Shown here in pieces: positions 10,298 through 45,670 of a stretch of DNA of 64,000 nt (the stretch's first letter is position 1; each line of letters opens with the position of its first letter). The position numbers and the translations under genes were made by a program. Location: the NCBI RefSeq assembly GCF_045037415.1, contig NZ_CP173438.1; one strand, 5' to 3'. The notes under the pieces are model-generated. The model worked only from the letters and a program-made list of their open reading frames with translations. It was not told the DNA's origin and did not search any database. This DNA comes from Escherichia coli. Lineage in GTDB: Bacteria; Pseudomonadota; Gammaproteobacteria; Enterobacterales; Enterobacteriaceae.

Positions 10298-12125
<1,828 letters not shown>

Positions 12126-36646: not shown

Positions 36647-36686
36647 ATTCACCTCATTGTGAAAAATAAAAAACCTGCCTGGCTAT

Positions 36687-36702: not shown

Positions 36703-36815
36703 TCTTTAATTTTTTAATAATGCTTTGTTATTTAATGATTTTATTATTTATTCTTTTTATTTTGTGCGCGGTTTTCCGCACAGTAAATAAAAGGTGATTC
36801 TCTTACCACACAGAT

Positions 36816-36839
36816 AAAAAAAGGGAGCGATATGCTCCC
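36816..36839 (-). terminator. Rho-independent terminator downstream of the sucD-like gene
   Basis: Minus strand: hairpin gggagc-atatc-gctccc followed by an 8-T run. Confidence 0.6.
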
Positions 36840-38933: not shown

Positions 38934-40352
38934 TTATCCGTGTAATGCTTTATTATTCAAGGCCATTGCTGCTTCGTGGATGACTTCGCTTAATGTCGGA
39001 TGCGCATGGATCGCACAGGCAATATCCTCGCCAGAGGCGCTAAAAGTCATCGCCAGCGCAATTTCATTAATCAGCTCCGATGCCTGCGGGCCAACAATCG
39101 CTCCGCCAAGTACGCGGTCAGTGTGTTTATCACTGTATAACGTGCAACGCCCACCTTCCTGGCCTAATGCTAAGGCGCGACCGTTACCGGCAAACAGAGA
39201 ATTTCCTTTGTTAAAGACTCTGCCAGCGGCTTTCAGTGAGGCCTCGTTTTCCCCTACCCACGCAACTTCCGGTTGGGTGTAAATCACCGAAGGGATCAGC
39301 GCAAAATTAATCGGCTCTACCACCAGTCCGGCAATTTGATCAGCCACCACTACACCTTCAGCCATCGCTTTATGCGCCAGCATCGGCCCTCGCACGACAT
39401 CACCAATTGCCCACAGCCCGGCTTTCCCGGTACGGCATAAGTTATCGACGGCAATACCGCCACGGTTATCGGCTTCAAGACCGAGTTGCACGAGATCGAC
39501 ACCAGAAAGTCGCGGTACACGTCCAATGGCAAGAATTAATTTATCGAAGCGGCTTTCTTCTCGCTTCTCACCCTGCCGCCAGCGCACATGCACACCGTCA
39601 TCCCGTTGTTCAATAGCCTCAATCTCTACTGCCAGTTGCATTTTCATCCCACTGGCAATCATTGCTTTACGGACTTCGTTCGACAGGCGAGCTTCCAGTG
39701 CAGGCAAGAACGTTGGCGCCATCTCCAGCAACGTGACGTCTGAACCAACCCGATTCCACACAGACCCCAGTTCAAGGCCAATCACGCCAGCGCCGATCAC
39801 ACCGAGACGCGGCGGCACTTCGCTCAATGCCAGGGCGCCACGATTGTCGAGGATCTGTTGATTATCAATGGTAACGCCAGGCAGCTGACGCGGCTGAGAA
39901 CCTGTTGCAATCACTACATTACGGGCGTGAAGGTGTTGATCGTTTACACGTAATTGCCAAATCTCATCCTGAGCACATTCTAACGTTGCGAGGCCGCACA
40001 GGTGCTTCACTTTATTTTTCTTAAACAGCAAGCTGATGCCCATTGTCAGGCGGCTTACTATGGCGTCTTTACGTTGAATCATCGCAGCTGCATTGAAAGA
40101 TACGCCGTCAACATTAACGCCATGAATGCTCGCCTCATGCTGCACTTGCGCGTACAGTTCGGAAGATTGCAGCAACGATTTTGACGGAATACAGCCGACA
40201 TTGAGACACGTACCGCCCGGCGAAGGTTCGCCCTGTGCATTAACACCATCATCAATACATACTACGGAAAGCCCATTCTGCGCAGCCCGCAGTGCCGCTA
40301 CGTAACCACCTGGCCCCCCCCCCATAACTGCCACATCAAAAATTGTACTCAT
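38934..40352 (-). CDS. Dihydrolipoyl dehydrogenase (E3) paralogue
   Basis: 472-aa ORF with FAD fold GGGPGGYVAA and redox-active disulfide GGTCLNVGCIPSK. Confidence 0.88.
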   Translation of the reverse strand: MSTIFDVAVMGGGPGGYVAALRAAQNGLSVVCIDDGVNAQGEPSPGGTCLNVGCIPSKSLLQSSELYAQVQHEASIHGVNVDGVSFNAAAMIQRKDAIVSRLTMGISLLFKKNKVKHLCGLATLECAQDEIWQLRVNDQHLHARNVVIATGSQPRQLPGVTIDNQQILDNRGALALSEVPPRLGVIGAGVIGLELGSVWNRVGSDVTLLEMAPTFLPALEARLSNEVRKAMIASGMKMQLAVEIEAIEQRDDGVHVRWRQGEKREESRFDKLILAIGRVPRLSGVDLVQLGLEADNRGGIAVDNLCRTGKAGLWAIGDVVRGPMLAHKAMAEGVVVADQIAGLVVEPINFALIPSVIYTQPEVAWVGENEASLKAAGRVFNKGNSLFAGNGRALALGQEGGRCTLYSDKHTDRVLGGAIVGPQASELINEIALAMTFSASGEDIACAIHAHPTLSEVIHEAAMALNNKALHG

Positions 40353-41550: not shown

Positions 41551-44295
41551 TCATGGCTGAATATCTGCAAACGCAGCAGCAAGAAATTCGTCGATTTGTT
41601 GTTTATGTACACGCCCATACCCTGTCGCTGGTGCTGCCGCTGCCGGGCGGCCTGCATACTGCCAGTAAGGAGTGTTAATTTTCAGTGCCGCCAGCTCATG
41701 ACGAATCTGCCGCCACGCGCCCTGGTTTTCTGGCTCTTCCTGCAACCAAATCCATTCGCAGCAGTTCGGCCAACTCGCCAGAACATCATTCAGTTCTGCG
41801 ACCGGGAACGGGTAGAGTTGCTCCAGGCGAACAATCGCTACCTCGTCTTCATGCTCACGCTGCTTACGGGCTTCCAGTACGTCGTAATAGACCTGGCCGC
41901 TACACAAAATAACGCGCTTAACTTTCTGGGACTGATGCAATTGCGGATCGGTGATTACCGGTTTATAAGCGTCATCAGTGAATTCACAAAGCTCGCTCAT
42001 CGCGCCTTTAAACCGAAGTAAACGCTTACTCATCATTATCACTAACGGTTTGCGCATTGGGCGTAATGCCTGACCGCGCAACAAATGGAACATTTGTGCT
42101 GACTCACTGGGCATCACCACCTGCATGTTGTTTTCTGCGCACAGTTGCAGCCAGCGCTCAGGACGTGCGGAAGAGTGCTCCGGCCCTTGTCCGTCATAGC
42201 CATGCGGCAGAAGAATGGTTAAACCGCTATAGCGATCCCACTTGGTTTCGCCAGACGAGATAAATTGGTCAATAGCAACCTGAGCGCCGTTGGCAAAGTC
42301 ACCAAACTGTGCTTCCCAAATAACCAGTTGCTGAGGCGCAGACGTTGAATAGCCATATTCAAAGGCTAAGAGCGCTTCTTCATTAAGCACCGAATCATAA
42401 ACATCGAAAGATGCCTGACCAGCGCGGATATGCTGTAACGGCAGATAACGACGGGCTTCCGTTTGATGATGTACCACTGCATGGCGATGACTGAACGTGC
42501 CACGCCCTGAGTCTTCACCAGAAAGACGCACACCAACACCCGCATCCACAAGCGATGCATAGGCCAGCATTTCAGCCATTCCCCAGTCTACTGGCTGAGT
42601 ACCTGCGGCCATATCCTGGCGTAACGCCAGTTGCCGTTTAATGGTAGGATGTGCGACCACATCGGGTGGCAGTGTAGAAATGATTTCACCATACGCTGCC
42701 AGCTTTTGCCGAGGCAATGCCGTAGATACCGGGGCGCTCCAGTGAGGGTTGGTCAACCCATACCAGTTAGCGCTAAAAGAGTGAATTGCAGGTTTGAGAG
42801 GCTGCGGTTCACGTTTCTGGCAGCTATCCAGCCAGTCGCGATAGCGTGCCGTCATCTCATCTTGTTGCGCCTGAGTTAACAGGCCGCGGCGGGCAAGAGA
42901 TTCACCATAACGGGCGAGCGTACCAGGGTGAGCATCCACTGCCTGATACATTTGTGGCTGGGTAAGACGTGGCTCATCGCTTTCGTTGTGTCCGTGCTTA
43001 CGGAAGCAGCAAATATCGATGATGATGTCACGCCGGAAGGTGTCTCGCCATTCGCACGCCAGTTCCATTACCTGGCAAACAGCGTCAACGTCATCGCCAT
43101 TAACGTGGATAATTGGGGCCGCTACCATTTTGGCAATATCGGTGCAGTACCGTGAAGAACGCATATCCTGCAAGCGGGAAGTGGTGAAGCCAATCTGATT
43201 GTTAATCACCAGATGTAGCGTACCGCCAGTGCCGTAGCCCTGAGTCTGCGATAAGTTAAACGTGGTTTGGTTGACGCCGAGGCCGCCCAACGCGGAATCC
43301 CCATGAATAAGTACGCCCACCACTTTTGCCTGACCATCCTCACCACGGCGTTCCTGCCTGGCTCGCACCTGGCCCAGCACCACCGGATTCACGATCTCCA
43401 GATGTGAGGGGTTATACGCCAGCGCCACATGCAGCGAACCGGCAGGTGTTTCCAGATTGCTGGAATACCCCATGTGGTATTTCACATCGCCTGAACCACT
43501 GCCGATCGTCTGCTTGCCTTCAAACTCAGCAAAAAGCTGTGCCGGGTCTTTATTCAACAGATTAACCAGAACATTAAGTCTTCCCCGGTGCGCCATGCCA
43601 ATGACCATTTCCTCCACACCTTGCGCACGCAGGCGTTTTGTCAGCGTATCGAGCGCCGGGATTGCACTTTCGCCCCCTTCCAGAGAAAACCGTTTCTGCC
43701 CAACATAACGGGTATGCAGATAACGCTCTAACGTCTCTGCCGCCATCAGTTTTTCAAAACGAGCAATACAGGTTTGGGCATCAGCTTGTGGCGCATTGCT
43801 GCTCTCAATCCGTGATAACAACCAGTTGATTTCTTCACGATTTTCCAGATGAGCAAGTTCATAAGCCTGGCTACTGGCCCAGGCTTGCTCCAGCAGGTTA
43901 AGCAGTTGCTTAAGTGGCATTTGCGTGGTGTGTGCGCCAAAGGTGACGCTAAACTCCTGCAACAAGTCTTCTTCGCTTAATCCCCAAAAACCAGGCTGGA
44001 GGGAGGGAACGTCAGCCGGGGGATTCAAACCAAGTGGATCAAGCTTTGCGCGCAGATGCCCCTGCGTGCGCCAGGCATTGATCAGTTGTATTACCGCAGC
44101 CTGTTTTTTTAAGGTCGCACCGCTGATATTGTTATCACCGGATACGCTTTGGACAGTCAGTTCAGGTGAAAGAAAAAAACGCCGCCAGTCTTCCGGGAGT
44201 TGTTCCGGCGTACGCAACCAGGTCTGGTAGTACTCTTCAAGCCAGGTCGCGTTATCTCCACTAAGCAGCGTGCCGGGCGAGGTCATGTTCTCCAT
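41551..44295 (-). CDS. 2-Oxoglutarate dehydrogenase E1 component paralogue
   Basis: Long ORF with E1o/TPP-binding similarity; start placed at ATG 44295 (MENMTSPG, SD AGGAG 6 nt upstream) rather than the ORF-track start 44418. Confidence 0.85.
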   Translation of the reverse strand: MENMTSPGTLLSGDNATWLEEYYQTWLRTPEQLPEDWRRFFLSPELTVQSVSGDNNISGATLKKQAAVIQLINAWRTQGHLRAKLDPLGLNPPADVPSLQPGFWGLSEEDLLQEFSVTFGAHTTQMPLKQLLNLLEQAWASSQAYELAHLENREEINWLLSRIESSNAPQADAQTCIARFEKLMAAETLERYLHTRYVGQKRFSLEGGESAIPALDTLTKRLRAQGVEEMVIGMAHRGRLNVLVNLLNKDPAQLFAEFEGKQTIGSGSGDVKYHMGYSSNLETPAGSLHVALAYNPSHLEIVNPVVLGQVRARQERRGEDGQAKVVGVLIHGDSALGGLGVNQTTFNLSQTQGYGTGGTLHLVINNQIGFTTSRLQDMRSSRYCTDIAKMVAAPIIHVNGDDVDAVCQVMELACEWRDTFRRDIIIDICCFRKHGHNESDEPRLTQPQMYQAVDAHPGTLARYGESLARRGLLTQAQQDEMTARYRDWLDSCQKREPQPLKPAIHSFSANWYGLTNPHWSAPVSTALPRQKLAAYGEIISTLPPDVVAHPTIKRQLALRQDMAAGTQPVDWGMAEMLAYASLVDAGVGVRLSGEDSGRGTFSHRHAVVHHQTEARRYLPLQHIRAGQASFDVYDSVLNEEALLAFEYGYSTSAPQQLVIWEAQFGDFANGAQVAIDQFISSGETKWDRYSGLTILLPHGYDGQGPEHSSARPERWLQLCAENNMQVVMPSESAQMFHLLRGQALRPMRKPLVIMMSKRLLRFKGAMSELCEFTDDAYKPVITDPQLHQSQKVKRVILCSGQVYYDVLEARKQREHEDEVAIVRLEQLYPFPVAELNDVLASWPNCCEWIWLQEEPENQGAWRQIRHELAALKINTPYWQYAGRPAAAAPATGYGRVHKQQIDEFLAAAFADIQP

Positions 44296-44330
44296 GTTTT
44301 TCTCCTGATGGTCATAGACAGCTGCATTAC

Positions 44331-44346
44331 TGCACAATCCGTACCA
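44331..44346 (-). promoter_or_regulatory. Candidate sigma-54 (-24/-12) promoter for the 2-oxoglutarate dehydrogenase / succinyl-CoA synthetase operon
   Basis: Minus strand reads TGGTAC-GGATT-GTGCA with GG-N10-GC spacing, ~36 bp upstream of the proposed E1 start. Confidence 0.45.
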
Positions 44347-44476
44347 ACAGTTAAAAACACTAATTTTCAAAAACTTATAGAAAAGAGATGATGTAAAAGT
44401 GGGCGAAAAAAGGGACAAAATAGTAGGGAGTGGCTGGAGTCAGGAACAGGCGGAGAGATCCGCCTGTTGATTAAAA

Positions 44477-45670
44477 TCACATCACCGCAGCAAACGCCTT
44501 TGCCACGCGATGCACATTTTGCGTGTTAAGCCCGGCGACACACATGCGACCGCTGGCGATGAGATAGACACCAAATTCTTCACGTAGTTGGTCAACCTGA
44601 GCGGCACTTAAACCGGTATAACTGAACATGCCGCGCTGATTAAGCAGATAATCGAAATTGCGTTCTGGCATCTCTGTGCTCAATACCTTCACCAGTTCCT
44701 GACGCATTGCCAGAATGCGAGTTCGCATCTCTTCTACTTCCACCAGCCAGCTGGCTTTCAATGCCTCGTCATTCAGCACCGCAGCCACCACCTGCGCACC
44801 AAAATTCGGCGGGCTGGAGTAGTTGCGGCGAACAGTTGCTTTCAATTGCCCCAGTACGCGGCCTGCGGCTTCGGCATCTTCACACAGAACAGAAAGTCCG
44901 CCGACGCGCTCGCCGTAAAGGGAGAAAATTTTCGAGAACGAATTGCTCACCAGAGCGGGTAATCCAGCGCTGGCAATGGCGCGAATGGCGTAGGCATCCT
45001 CTTCCATACCGGCACCAAATCCTTGATAGGCAATATCAAGAAATGGGATAAGCTCACGGGCTTTGAGAATTTCAATCACCGCATCCCACTGCTCATTAGT
45101 GAGATCGGCACCCGTTGGGTTGTGGCAACATGGATGCAGCAACACAATACTGCGGGCAGGTAATGTTTTCAGCGTCGCCAACAGGTCATTAAAGCGCACG
45201 CCGTTAGTCGCTTCGTCATACCAGGGGTAAGTACTTACTTCGAATCCAGCCCCGGCGAATATTGCTACGTGGTTTTCCCAGGTAGGATCGCTGACCCAGA
45301 CGCTTGATTCCGGGAAGTAGCGTTTCAGGAAATCTGCGCCCACTTTCAATGCCCCTGAGCCGCCAAGGGTTTGAATGGTTGCTACGCGCTGTTGTTGCAG
45401 TACCGGATGGTCCGCACCAAACAGCAGCGGCGCAATGGCATGGCGATAGCTGTTAAGCCCTTCCATCGGTAAATAAAGCGAAGCACCATGAGGCTGCGCA
45501 TTCAGGCGCGCTTCCGCATCCGCCACGGCTTTCAGTTGTGGAATAATTCCGTCTTCGTTGTAGTACAGACCGATACTTAAATTCACTTTGTCGCTGCGAG
45601 GGTCTTCTTTAAAACGCTCCATAAGCGTAAGAATCGGGTCGCCAGCGTAGGCGTCAACTTTTTGAAACAC
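44477..45670 (-). CDS. tyrB: Aromatic-amino-acid aminotransferase
   Basis: 397-aa protein from GTG at 45670 ([36 protein letters not shown]). Confidence 0.95.

What the first reader, a model, noticed from the sequence alone, without database searches (positions are those of the whole stretch)
44447..44468. Inverted repeat between tyrB stop and the island promoter
aacaggcgga-gaga-tccgcctgtt forms a 10-bp perfect inverted repeat just past the tyrB stop and ~100 bp upstream of the candidate sigma-54 promoter. It could be the tyrB terminator stem or an enhancer-like binding site for the NtrC-type regulator.
Basis: seen in the sequence. Interest (0 to 1): 0.3.

Follow-up and report, generated by a model that had tools for sequence, protein, structure and literature searches.

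The report
Hairpin ending the tyrB transcript
The palindrome is real and is most likely the ordinary stem-loop that ends and protects the tyrB messenger RNA, shielding the neighbouring alpha-ketoglutarate-utilisation operon from read-through, and is not the regulator's docking site.

Summary
tyrB lies on the minus strand. The repeat starts 8 nt after its UGA and ends 99 bp before the -24 element of the sigma-54 promoter of c5032, the first gene of the known KguS/KguR alpha-ketoglutarate island of uropathogenic E. coli.

As RNA it folds into a -16 kcal/mol hairpin with no U-tract. The next 78 nt are unstructured, with C=25 and G=6, the most C-over-G segment of the 64 kb. [quoted passage not shown]

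Five lineages (E. coli/E. albertii, Citrobacter sp. R56, two metagenome lineages, K-12) each carry a different -16 to -20 kcal/mol hairpin at this position. The Citrobacter one is a canonical terminator.

The repeat does not match the KguR motif, is absent from the other KguR promoters, and is not conserved with the promoter. Two 20-bp blocks just downstream are conserved, and its proximal arm overlaps the first by 4 bp; these are the better enhancer candidates.

Verdict: an ordinary gene-end terminator or stabiliser hairpin. No 3'-end mapping exists for this allele. Low interest.

The parts
44445..44468 (-). The inverted repeat. On the tyrB-sense (minus) RNA it is AACAGGCGGA-UCUC-UCCGCCUGUU, a 10-bp stem with a 4-nt loop.
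   Evidence: I9; -16.3 kcal/mol alone; present in the MFE and centroid structures of 61-195-nt contexts.
44477..45670 (-). tyrB (aromatic amino acid transaminase), with stop UGA at 44479-44477.
   Evidence: RefSeq annotation of identical DNA in strain SK1144; ORF list.
44367..44444 (-). C-rich, G-poor, unstructured 78-nt tract immediately 3' of the hairpin; candidate Rho-loading (rut) region.
   Evidence: C=25, G=6, 17 YC dimers; 99.97th percentile of all 78-nt windows on both strands of the window. Unpaired in the fold of the whole intergenic RNA.
44429..44448 (-). Conserved block 1, TGTTCC-TGACTCCA-GCCACT. Candidate distal KguR enhancer site, centred about -119. Its first 4 nt (TGTT, 44448-44445) are the end of the hairpin's 3' arm.
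   Evidence: Conserved across E. coli, E. albertii, Citrobacter R56, L003 and L006. Forms a tandem pair with block 2.
44398..44417 (-). Conserved block 2, TGTCCC-TTTTTTCG-CCCACT. Candidate proximal KguR site, centred about -88, 31 bp from block 1.
   Evidence: Resembles the validated c5038 site TGTGCG-GAAAACCG-CGCACA.
44331..44346 (-). Sigma-54 -24/-12 element TGGTACGGATTGTGCA of the c5032 operon; predicted transcription start about 44320.
   Evidence: Sequence. Conserved as TTGGTAYGRATnnTGCA in all tyrB-linked orthologues. The same GG(-24) rule reproduces the published c5038 start site, the A at 36676.
41551..44295 (-). c5032, the 2-oxoglutarate dehydrogenase E1 homologue and first gene of the KguR-dependent c5032-c5037 operon.
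44520..44544 (-). Published candidate KguR site for c5032, lying inside tyrB codons (TGTGTGTCGCCGGGCTTAACACGCA here; ...AACGCGCA in CFT073).
   Evidence: Table 3 of PMC8716947. The right half is not conserved in E. albertii, Citrobacter R56, L003 or L006.

Best explanation
The repeat is the 3'-end stem-loop of the tyrB transcript.

RNA polymerase leaving tyrB on the minus strand transcribes it 8 nt after the UGA, and it folds into a 10-bp GC-rich hairpin. There is no U-tract, so the hairpin alone is probably a poor intrinsic terminator. The 78 nt that follow are untranslated, unstructured and extremely C-rich and G-poor. Rho can load there and stop the polymerase before or within the c5032 leader. 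3'-to-5' exonucleases would then trim the RNA back to the hairpin, which becomes the stable tyrB mRNA end.

The net effect is to insulate the KguR- and sigma-54-dependent c5032 promoter and its upstream activator sites from tyrB read-through. The repeat is not itself the KguR enhancer. It only abuts the distal conserved block, sharing 4 bp with it.

Shown: the anatomy, the position, the replacement by other hairpins in relatives, the base composition, and the lack of a motif match. Inferred: the Rho step, the trimming and the insulation.
For: - Position and stability. The repeat starts 8 nt after the tyrB stop, on the sense strand, and folds at -16.3 kcal/mol. It is the only strong structure in the 181-nt intergenic RNA.
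- Structure kept, sequence not. Window and E. albertii share the stem but differ in the loop (4-nt TCTC against a 7-nt insert that folds to a 5-nt loop). Citrobacter R56 has GAGGCUGG..CAGCCUC followed by UUUUUCUU, a canonical terminator. L003, L006 and K-12 have three further unrelated hairpins. All six lie 8-17 nt after the stop and fold at -16 to -20 kcal/mol.
- U-less hairpin followed by C=25/G=6 in 78 nt, the 99.97th percentile of the window. This matches Dar & Sorek 2018: Rho-dependent transcripts end just after stable stem-loops without U-rich tails, with rut sites immediately downstream.
- In K-12 the tyrB 3' region is a bicyclomycin-sensitive Rho termination region (Rho score 3.18, p = 2.8e-9). 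K-12's own U-poor hairpin marks a very strong Term-seq 3' end on the opposite strand.
- The chromosomal c5032-lacZ fusion was made by pVIK112 integration, with native tyrB upstream. It falls to background without KguR, so little tyrB transcription reaches c5032.
- The same layout of terminator hairpin, then tandem sites, then sigma-54 promoter precedes c5038 in this window and in L003.
Against: - No 3'-end mapping, Rho-inhibition or read-through measurement exists for this allele (searches found none).
- The tail has only 2-3 U in 8, so intrinsic termination is doubtful.
- The C-rich tract coincides with conserved DNA blocks, the likely activator sites. Its composition may therefore be selected at the DNA level rather than for Rho.
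- The K-12 evidence concerns a different hairpin and different downstream DNA. Its curated Term-seq 3' end is on the antisense strand, not the tyrB strand.
- The stems are invariant among close relatives, so there is no true compensatory-substitution evidence. The apparent K-12 versus window stem similarity is not significant.
- The lacZ values themselves were not available, because figures are not held.
Confidence: 0.72

Rival explanations
1. It is a self-sufficient, weak intrinsic (Rho-independent) terminator of tyrB. An 8-bp GC core (CAGGCGGA/UCCGCCUG) is followed by UUCCUGACU and releases the polymerase without Rho.
For: Hairpin geometry is typical of intrinsic terminators. In K-12 a comparable hairpin with the tail UUUCCU gives a very strong, precise 3' end 6-7 nt after the stem. 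Citrobacter R56 has a canonical terminator at the same position.
Against: Only 2 of 8 U follow the 10-bp stem, or 3 of 8 after the 8-bp core. The consensus scan does not call it. A precise 3' end after a U-less hairpin is equally produced by trimming of Rho-terminated RNA.
Confidence: 0.2
2. It is a protein-binding palindrome on DNA: an upstream activator site for KguR, either a third site or part of the distal site, or the operator of another dimeric regulator of the c5032 promoter.
For: It is a perfect 10-bp palindrome centred about 137 bp upstream of the predicted start, within the usual range for sigma-54 enhancers. It lies inside the 307-bp probe (44340-44646) that KguR shifts. Its proximal arm overlaps conserved block 1 by 4 bp.
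Against: It does not match TGTG(T/C)G-N5-15-C(G/A)C(G/A)CA, the motif whose deletion abolishes KguR binding at c5038 and kguS (site sequences). No similar sequence occurs at those promoters or anywhere else in the 64 kb. It is replaced by unrelated hairpins in Citrobacter-type orthologues, and in Pectobacterium by a terminator of a different gene, while blocks 1 and 2 and the promoter are kept. The loop length changes between E. coli and E. albertii, which alters half-site spacing.
Confidence: 0.07
3. It is a functionless relic of the junction between core genome and island, for example a remnant of the donor's gene-end hairpin or a chance palindrome.
For: Homology to K-12 stops exactly at the tyrB stop codon. 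The repeat is found only in the 1045 of 5426 E. coli genomes that carry the island. It has no U-tract.
Against: Both stems are invariant across the E. coli variants sampled and E. albertii, although the loop and flanking bases vary. Palindromes of this quality are about 17-fold enriched over chance in the window. There is no partner copy at the other island border and no mobility genes. Every lineage keeps some hairpin here.
Confidence: 0.06

Closest known systems
[quoted passage not shown]
   Same: A stable stem-loop of terminator-like size just after the stop codon. No U-rich tail and no A-tract upstream. C-over-G enrichment directly downstream.
   Different: Rho dependence and exonuclease trimming are untested here. 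The C/G bias is far stronger than the 'mild' enrichment described, and it coincides with conserved promoter-upstream DNA blocks.
Canonical intrinsic terminators, such as the one after sucD/c5037 in this island (about 36837-36813, GGGAGC..GCTCCC plus T7) and the tyrB terminator of Citrobacter sp. R56
   Same: A GC-rich hairpin a few nt after a stop codon, placed directly upstream of the tandem sites of a sigma-54 promoter.
   Different: The U-tract is missing. CCUGACUC follows the stem where the others have UUUUUUUA or UUUUUCUU.
The hairpin after tyrB in E. coli K-12 (NC_000913.3 4268317-4268340, GCAGGCTGG-agctac-CCAGCCTGC)
   Same: Same place (9 nt after the stop), similar energy (-17.9 kcal/mol), also U-poor on the tyrB strand. 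The tyrB 3' region is flagged as Rho-dependent.
   Different: The sequence is not demonstrably homologous. It is followed by AT-rich yjbS DNA, not a C-rich tract (C13/G14). Its mapped strong 3' end belongs to the opposite strand.
KguR (c5040) enhancer sites at c5038 and kguS; NtrC/DctD-type upstream activator sequences
   Same: A palindrome about 100-140 bp upstream of a sigma-54 promoter that KguR controls.
   Different: No sequence match to the validated sites. It is not repeated at the other KguR promoters and not conserved in orthologous promoters.

Membership tests
Intrinsic (Rho-independent) terminator | GC-rich stem of 5-14 bp with a 3-8-nt loop, on the sense strand downstream of a stop codon | tested here: met
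   10-bp stem (6 G-C pairs), 4-nt loop, -16.3 kcal/mol, 8 nt after the tyrB UGA.
Intrinsic (Rho-independent) terminator | U-rich tract (about 5 or more U in 8 nt) immediately 3' of the stem | tested here: not met
   The tail CCUGACUC has 2 of 8 U (3 of 8 if the stem is shortened to 8 bp). It is not called by the consensus scan.
Intrinsic (Rho-independent) terminator | RNA 3' end 7-9 nt after the stem, independent of Rho | not testable with these tools
   No 3'-end data for an island-carrying strain were found.
Rho-dependent terminator with protective 3' stem-loop (Dar & Sorek class) | Stable stem-loop at the transcript end that is not followed by a U-rich sequence | tested here: met
   class description.
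Rho-dependent terminator with protective 3' stem-loop (Dar & Sorek class) | C-rich, G-poor, unstructured and untranslated RNA of about 70-80 nt immediately downstream (rut) | tested here: met
   44444-44367 has C=25 and G=6, the 99.97th percentile of the window. It is unpaired in the fold. The next start codon is 181 nt after the stop.
Rho-dependent terminator with protective 3' stem-loop (Dar & Sorek class) | Read-through increases when Rho is inhibited; the 3' end is generated by PNPase or RNase II trimming | not testable with these tools
   Only indirect evidence: the K-12 tyrB 3' region has a Rho score of 3.18, but its downstream DNA differs.
KguR / NtrC-type upstream activator sequence | Match to the motif validated by site deletion, TGTG(T/C)G-N5-15-C(G/A)C(G/A)CA | tested here: not met
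   AACAGGCGGA-N4-TCCGCCTGTT contains neither half-site (motif, site sequences).
KguR / NtrC-type upstream activator sequence | Recurrence at the other promoters of the regulon | tested here: not met
   No second copy in the 64-kb window at up to 3 mismatches. The window contains the c5038 and kguS promoters.
KguR / NtrC-type upstream activator sequence | Conservation together with the sigma-54 promoter in orthologous loci | tested here: not met
   It is replaced by unrelated hairpins in Citrobacter R56, L003, L006 and Pectobacterium, while blocks 1 and 2 and the -24/-12 element are kept.
KguR / NtrC-type upstream activator sequence | Regulator binding to the isolated site | not testable with these tools
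   The published gel-shift probe (44340-44646) contains the repeat, blocks 1 and 2, and the tyrB-internal motif together.
Dispersed repeat (REP/BIME) or terminal inverted repeat of a mobile element | Multiple copies per genome, or a partner copy at the other end of the island | tested here: not met
   One place per genome in all 1045 genomes that have it. One copy in the window. No Rfam match.

The most novel reading that the evidence does not exclude
In E. coli and E. albertii the tyrB gene-end hairpin has fused with the enhancer of the neighbouring sigma-54 operon.

On this reading the true KguR activator sites of c5032 are the tandem 20-bp blocks at 44448-44429 and 44417-44398 (TGTnnn-N8-nnCAC, 31 bp apart). 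They mirror the pair at c5038. The published site inside tyrB codons would then be incidental.

The hairpin's 3' arm supplies the first 4 bp of the distal block, and the enhancer's own C-rich strand doubles as the Rho-loading tract. One stretch of DNA would thus serve as terminator for one gene and enhancer for the next. This would allow cross-talk between tyrB transcription, whose enzyme consumes alpha-ketoglutarate, and the alpha-ketoglutarate catabolic operon.
Probability: 0.3. Interest if true: 0.35.

Novelty: new member of a known kind. Interest (0 to 1): 0.15.

Why it matters
By itself it matters little. It is an unannotated but typical gene-end hairpin.

Its practical value is for work on the KguS/KguR virulence-fitness island of uropathogenic E. 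coli:
- It marks where tyrB transcription should stop.
- It shows that the 181-bp tyrB-c5032 spacer is fully occupied: hairpin, two conserved blocks, an IHF-like site, and the sigma-54 promoter.
- It suggests that the KguR site currently assigned to c5032, inside tyrB codons, should be re-examined against the conserved tandem blocks that start at the foot of this hairpin.

It is also a clean candidate example of the U-less hairpin plus rut architecture. It could be tested with a chromosomal lacZ fusion that already exists.

Tried and rejected
- Homology or compensatory change between the K-12 and island-type hairpins. They share a CAGGC/GCCTG core with two apparent compensatory pairs. Local alignment scores were 15 (direct) and 20 (inverted), against shuffles with a 95th percentile of 17 and a maximum of 23. 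This is not convincing, so the idea was dropped.
- Covariation within close relatives. The stems are invariant in E. coli variants and E. albertii and only the loop differs, so no compensatory evidence is available.
- Known RNA family. There is no Rfam match at E <= 1 in 44200-44700.
- Dispersed or mobile repeat. It is single-copy in the window and per genome.
- Direct 3'-end data for island-carrying strains. Literature searches for Term-seq with Nissle or uropathogenic strains gave nothing usable. The supplement of Dar & Sorek is not held.
- The first protein search with the truncated E1 query returned mostly fragments. It was useful only through three fragments whose contigs gave orthologous loci.
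- The genome-contig scan returned mostly ordinary SucA homologues (about 40-45% identity). Only three were true orthologues.
- A strict TGT-N13-CAC model does not fit the validated kguS site, whose spacing is 2 bp shorter. It also fits only one block in L003, L006 and Pectobacterium, where CAT replaces CAC. The tandem-site model therefore remains a hypothesis.
- A CRP/FNR-like reading of TGTGATTTTAATCAAC across the stop codon. It is weaker in E. albertii and absent in Citrobacter, so it was treated as chance.

Full report
**Observation.** The window carries AACAGGCGGA-GAGA-TCCGCCTGTT at 44445-44468. It is a 10-bp perfect inverted repeat with a 4-nt spacer.

tyrB is on the minus strand (44477-45670, stop UGA at 44479-44477). 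In the direction of tyrB transcription the repeat therefore starts 8 nt after the stop. A sigma-54-type -24/-12 element, TGGTACGGATTGTGCA, lies at minus 44346-44331, which is 99 bp further on.

The repeat is not a chance feature:
- It is unique in the window at up to 3 mismatches.
- Perfect repeats of at least 10 bp with 3-8-nt loops occur at 7 places in the window, against 0.4 expected.
- The local RNA folds far better than shuffles, with z = -4.35.

**Context.** The DNA is 100% identical over 44200-44700 to E. coli chromosomes of the SK1144 type. Downstream of tyrB lies the published KguS/KguR alpha-ketoglutarate utilisation island of uropathogenic E. coli. Its genes are:
- c5032 (E1 homologue, 41551-44295), followed by E2, lpdA, sucC and sucD;
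- c5038 (DASS transporter) and c5039;
- kguR and kguS, followed by aphA.

KguR is a sigma-54-dependent response regulator. It activates c5032-c5037 and c5038-c5039 in response to alpha-ketoglutarate under anaerobiosis. RpoN dependence and the transcription start have been shown for c5038.

**Core or island?** A 77-nt segment containing the repeat is present once per genome in 1045 of 5426 complete E. coli genomes. The same number, 1045, carry the adjacent E1 gene. Another 4357 genomes have the K-12-type sequence after tyrB.

Alignment with K-12 shows 97-100% identity through tyrB and a cluster of 8 substitutions at 44530-44506. All similarity is lost from the stop codon onward.

K-12 nevertheless has its own hairpin at the same place, GCAGGCTGG-agctac-CCAGCCTGC, 9 nt after the stop. 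The partial resemblance of the two stems is not statistically convincing.

**Relatives.** Fragments of E1 homologues led to metagenome contigs in which the cluster again follows tyrB. L005 carries the full dusA-qor-dnaB-alr-tyrB-E1 order, and the shorter contigs carry parts of it. These are L003/L004 and L006 (E1 73-74% identical) and L005 (93%).

A scan of one genome per species found true orthologues in only three:
- Escherichia albertii (94%);
- Citrobacter sp. R56 (77%);
- Pectobacterium zantedeschiae (57%), where the upstream gene is glnG-like, not tyrB.

Alignments of the tyrB-E1 spacers show clear homology from TGTTCCTGAC.CCAG.CA onward: two 20-bp blocks, an IHF-like element, the sigma-54 element and the ribosome-binding site.

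The stretch between the stop codon and the first block is not homologous. In every case it contains a different stable hairpin:

| Lineage | Hairpin | Energy | Tail after the stem |
|---|---|---|---|
| Window E. coli | the repeat, 4-nt loop TCTC | -16.3 kcal/mol | CCUGACUC (2 of 8 U) |
| E. albertii, L005, E. coli 14EC007 | same stems, 7-nt insert GCGCTCT folding to a 5-nt loop | -16.7 | CCUGACUC (2 of 8 U) |
| Citrobacter R56 | GAGGCUGG..CAGCCUC | -16.1 | UUUUUCUU, a textbook terminator |
| L003 | UAGCCUGGC..GCCAGGCUA | -16.6 | U-poor (2 of 8 U) |
| L006 | 11-bp stem | -20.3 | UGCUUUUA |
| K-12 | GCAGGCUGG..CCAGCCUGC | -17.9 | U-poor (2 of 8 U) |

Structure is kept at one position while the sequence is replaced. 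This is the pattern expected of an RNA-level gene-end element, not of a protein-binding site.

**What kind of terminator?** The hairpin is not followed by a U-tract, and the consensus scan finds no canonical terminator on the tyrB strand between tyrB and c5032.

The 78 nt that follow (44444-44367) have C=25 and G=6. This is the 99.97th percentile of all 78-nt windows on both strands of the 64 kb. They are unpaired in the fold of the entire spacer and untranslated.

Dar & Sorek mapped hundreds of E. coli 3' ends. They found that Rho-dependent transcripts end precisely after stable stem-loops that lack U-rich tails, that these structures protect against PNPase and RNase II, and that rut sites lie immediately downstream. 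The anatomy here fits that description point by point.

Indirect support comes from two sources:
- In K-12 the tyrB 3' region is a bicyclomycin-sensitive Rho termination region (Rho score 3.18, p = 2.8e-9). K-12's U-poor hairpin marks a very strong Term-seq 3' end, though on the opposite strand (4268311, minus).
- In CFT073 a chromosomal c5032-lacZ fusion was made by suicide-plasmid integration, so native tyrB lies upstream. Its expression drops to background without KguR. Transcription from tyrB must therefore be stopped somewhere in this spacer, where the repeat is the only strong structure.

**Is it the enhancer?** The KguR motif derived from sites whose deletion abolishes binding is TGTG(T/C)G-N5-15-C(G/A)C(G/A)CA. 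The c5038 site is TGTGCGGAAAACCGCGCACA and the kguS site is TGTGTGGTTTATCGCACA. The repeat has no such half-sites. It does not recur at those promoters and is not conserved with the promoter.

The published gel shift for c5032 used primers that define a probe at 44340-44646. That probe contains the repeat and every alternative site, so it cannot discriminate.

**Better enhancer candidates.** These are the two conserved blocks:

| Site | Position | Sequence | Centre relative to start |
|---|---|---|---|
| Block 1 | 44448-44429 | TGTTCC-TGACTCCA-GCCACT | about -119 |
| Block 2 | 44417-44398 | TGTCCC-TTTTTTCG-CCCACT | about -88 |

They are 31 bp apart. The predicted start at about 44320 uses a rule that reproduces the mapped c5038 start.

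A pair of TGT-N13-CAC sites 29-32 bp apart occurs only twice in the 64 kb, against 0.035 expected. One pair is here. The other is at c5038, where the proximal member is the validated KguR site.

The pair recurs in E. albertii, L005 and Citrobacter R56. With CAT in place of CAC it also recurs at both promoters in L003.

The pattern was noticed post hoc, and the kguS site has a 2-bp shorter spacing. I therefore treat it as a hypothesis. The repeat's promoter-proximal arm contributes the first 4 bp (TGTT) of block 1.

**The published site inside tyrB.** The c5032 site at minus 44544-44520 has a right half that exists only in the island-linked E. coli tyrB allele. It is absent from E. albertii, Citrobacter R56, L003 and L006.

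**Mechanism proposed.** The shown and inferred steps are:
1. The hairpin forms on the nascent tyrB RNA just after the stop codon (shown by sequence and folding).
2. Rho loads on the C-rich tract and terminates before productive transcription of c5032 (inferred).
3. Exonucleases trim back to the hairpin, which sets the mRNA 3' end and its stability (inferred from the Dar & Sorek class).
4. The KguR sites and the sigma-54 closed complex are thereby insulated from tyrB read-through (inferred; consistent with the background lacZ activity).

A weak intrinsic contribution from the UU(CC)U tail cannot be excluded and is listed as a rival. The same order of terminator, tandem sites and sigma-54 promoter precedes c5038, there with a canonical T-rich terminator.

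**Comparison and novelty.** The element works like, and passes the sequence-level tests for, the protective stem-loop plus rut class of Rho-dependent 3' ends. It fails the U-tract test for canonical intrinsic terminators and three of four testable criteria for a KguR enhancer site.

It is unannotated ('none' under the match) and not discussed in the KguS/KguR papers read here. It is nonetheless an ordinary kind of feature, so I classify it as a new member of a known kind, with interest 0.15.

The most novel reading not excluded is that terminator and enhancer are physically fused here, and that the c5032 KguR sites should be re-assigned to the tandem blocks (probability about 0.3, modest interest).

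**Limits.** There are no experimental 3'-end or Rho data for this allele. The lacZ values were not visible. The orthologue set is small, with five independent hairpin types. The C-rich composition may be driven by the DNA sites rather than by Rho.

Noticed in passing
window 44520-44544 (minus), inside tyrB codons: The KguR site published for c5032 (TGTGTG-N13-C[G/A]CGCA) sits in the tyrB coding sequence. Its right half is created by a cluster of 8 substitutions (2 amino-acid changes) that separates the island-linked tyrB allele from K-12. It is not conserved in E. albertii, Citrobacter R56, L003 or L006. It is either a lineage-specific extra site or a chance pattern match.
   Followed up: partly
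window 44398-44448 (minus) and 36763-36812 (minus): Tandem 20-bp TGTnnn-N8-nnCAC blocks 30-31 bp apart occur only at the two KguR/sigma-54 promoters in the 64 kb (0.035 expected). They are conserved in orthologues. The proximal c5038 member is the validated KguR site. They are candidate true enhancer pairs, centred about -88/-119 at c5032 and -97/-127 at c5038.
   Followed up: partly
window 44365-44377 (minus): An IHF-like element, TAAGTTTTTGAAA (YAANNNNTTGAWW), lies between the blocks and the sigma-54 promoter. It is conserved in all tyrB-linked orthologues and is a perfect TAATGTATTGATT in Citrobacter sp. R56.
   Followed up: no
window 44466-44481 (minus): TGTGATTTTAATCAAC spans the tyrB stop codon and the first bases of the repeat, and resembles a CRP/FNR-type palindrome. 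It is weaker in E. albertii and absent in Citrobacter, so it is probably chance. However, anaerobic control of the island by FNR and ArcA has been reported for c5038.
   Followed up: partly
window 36813-36837 (minus), after sucD/c5037: A canonical intrinsic terminator (GGGAGC-atatc-GCTCCC plus T7) lies directly upstream of the c5038 tandem sites. This agrees with the published two-operon structure. The same layout is present in L003 at 11945-12100.
   Followed up: partly
L002 (K-12) 2318-2341, equal to NC_000913.3 4268317-4268340: In published Term-seq data the K-12 hairpin after tyrB marks a very strong 3' end on the strand antisense to tyrB (4268311, score about 99,500). It therefore ends a transcript coming from the yjbS side. 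No tyrB-strand 3' end is in the curated list.
   Followed up: partly
L007, L008, L009, L003-L006: True orthologues of the kgu E1 gene were found in only 3 of about 100,000 species representatives (E. albertii, Citrobacter sp. R56, Pectobacterium zantedeschiae). The cluster is next to tyrB in Escherichia, Citrobacter and the metagenome contigs, but next to a glnG-like gene in Pectobacterium. The tyrB linkage suggests spread by homologous recombination of flanks, or ancestral presence, rather than site-specific insertion.
   Followed up: partly
L088 (E. coli 14EC007) and L001 10736-12153: E. coli 14EC007 carries the E. albertii-type allele of the tyrB 3' end, hairpin loop and c5032 promoter, together with a frameshifted E1 gene. 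Strain SK1144 has a frameshifted island lpdA, which is intact in the window (38934-40352). Island genes thus decay in some strains.
   Followed up: no
literature, PMC8716947: tyrB mRNA is reported to be about 2.2-fold lower in a kguR mutant. No explanation follows from the anatomy found here, unless KguR bound at the foot of the hairpin influences tyrB 3'-end formation.
   Followed up: no
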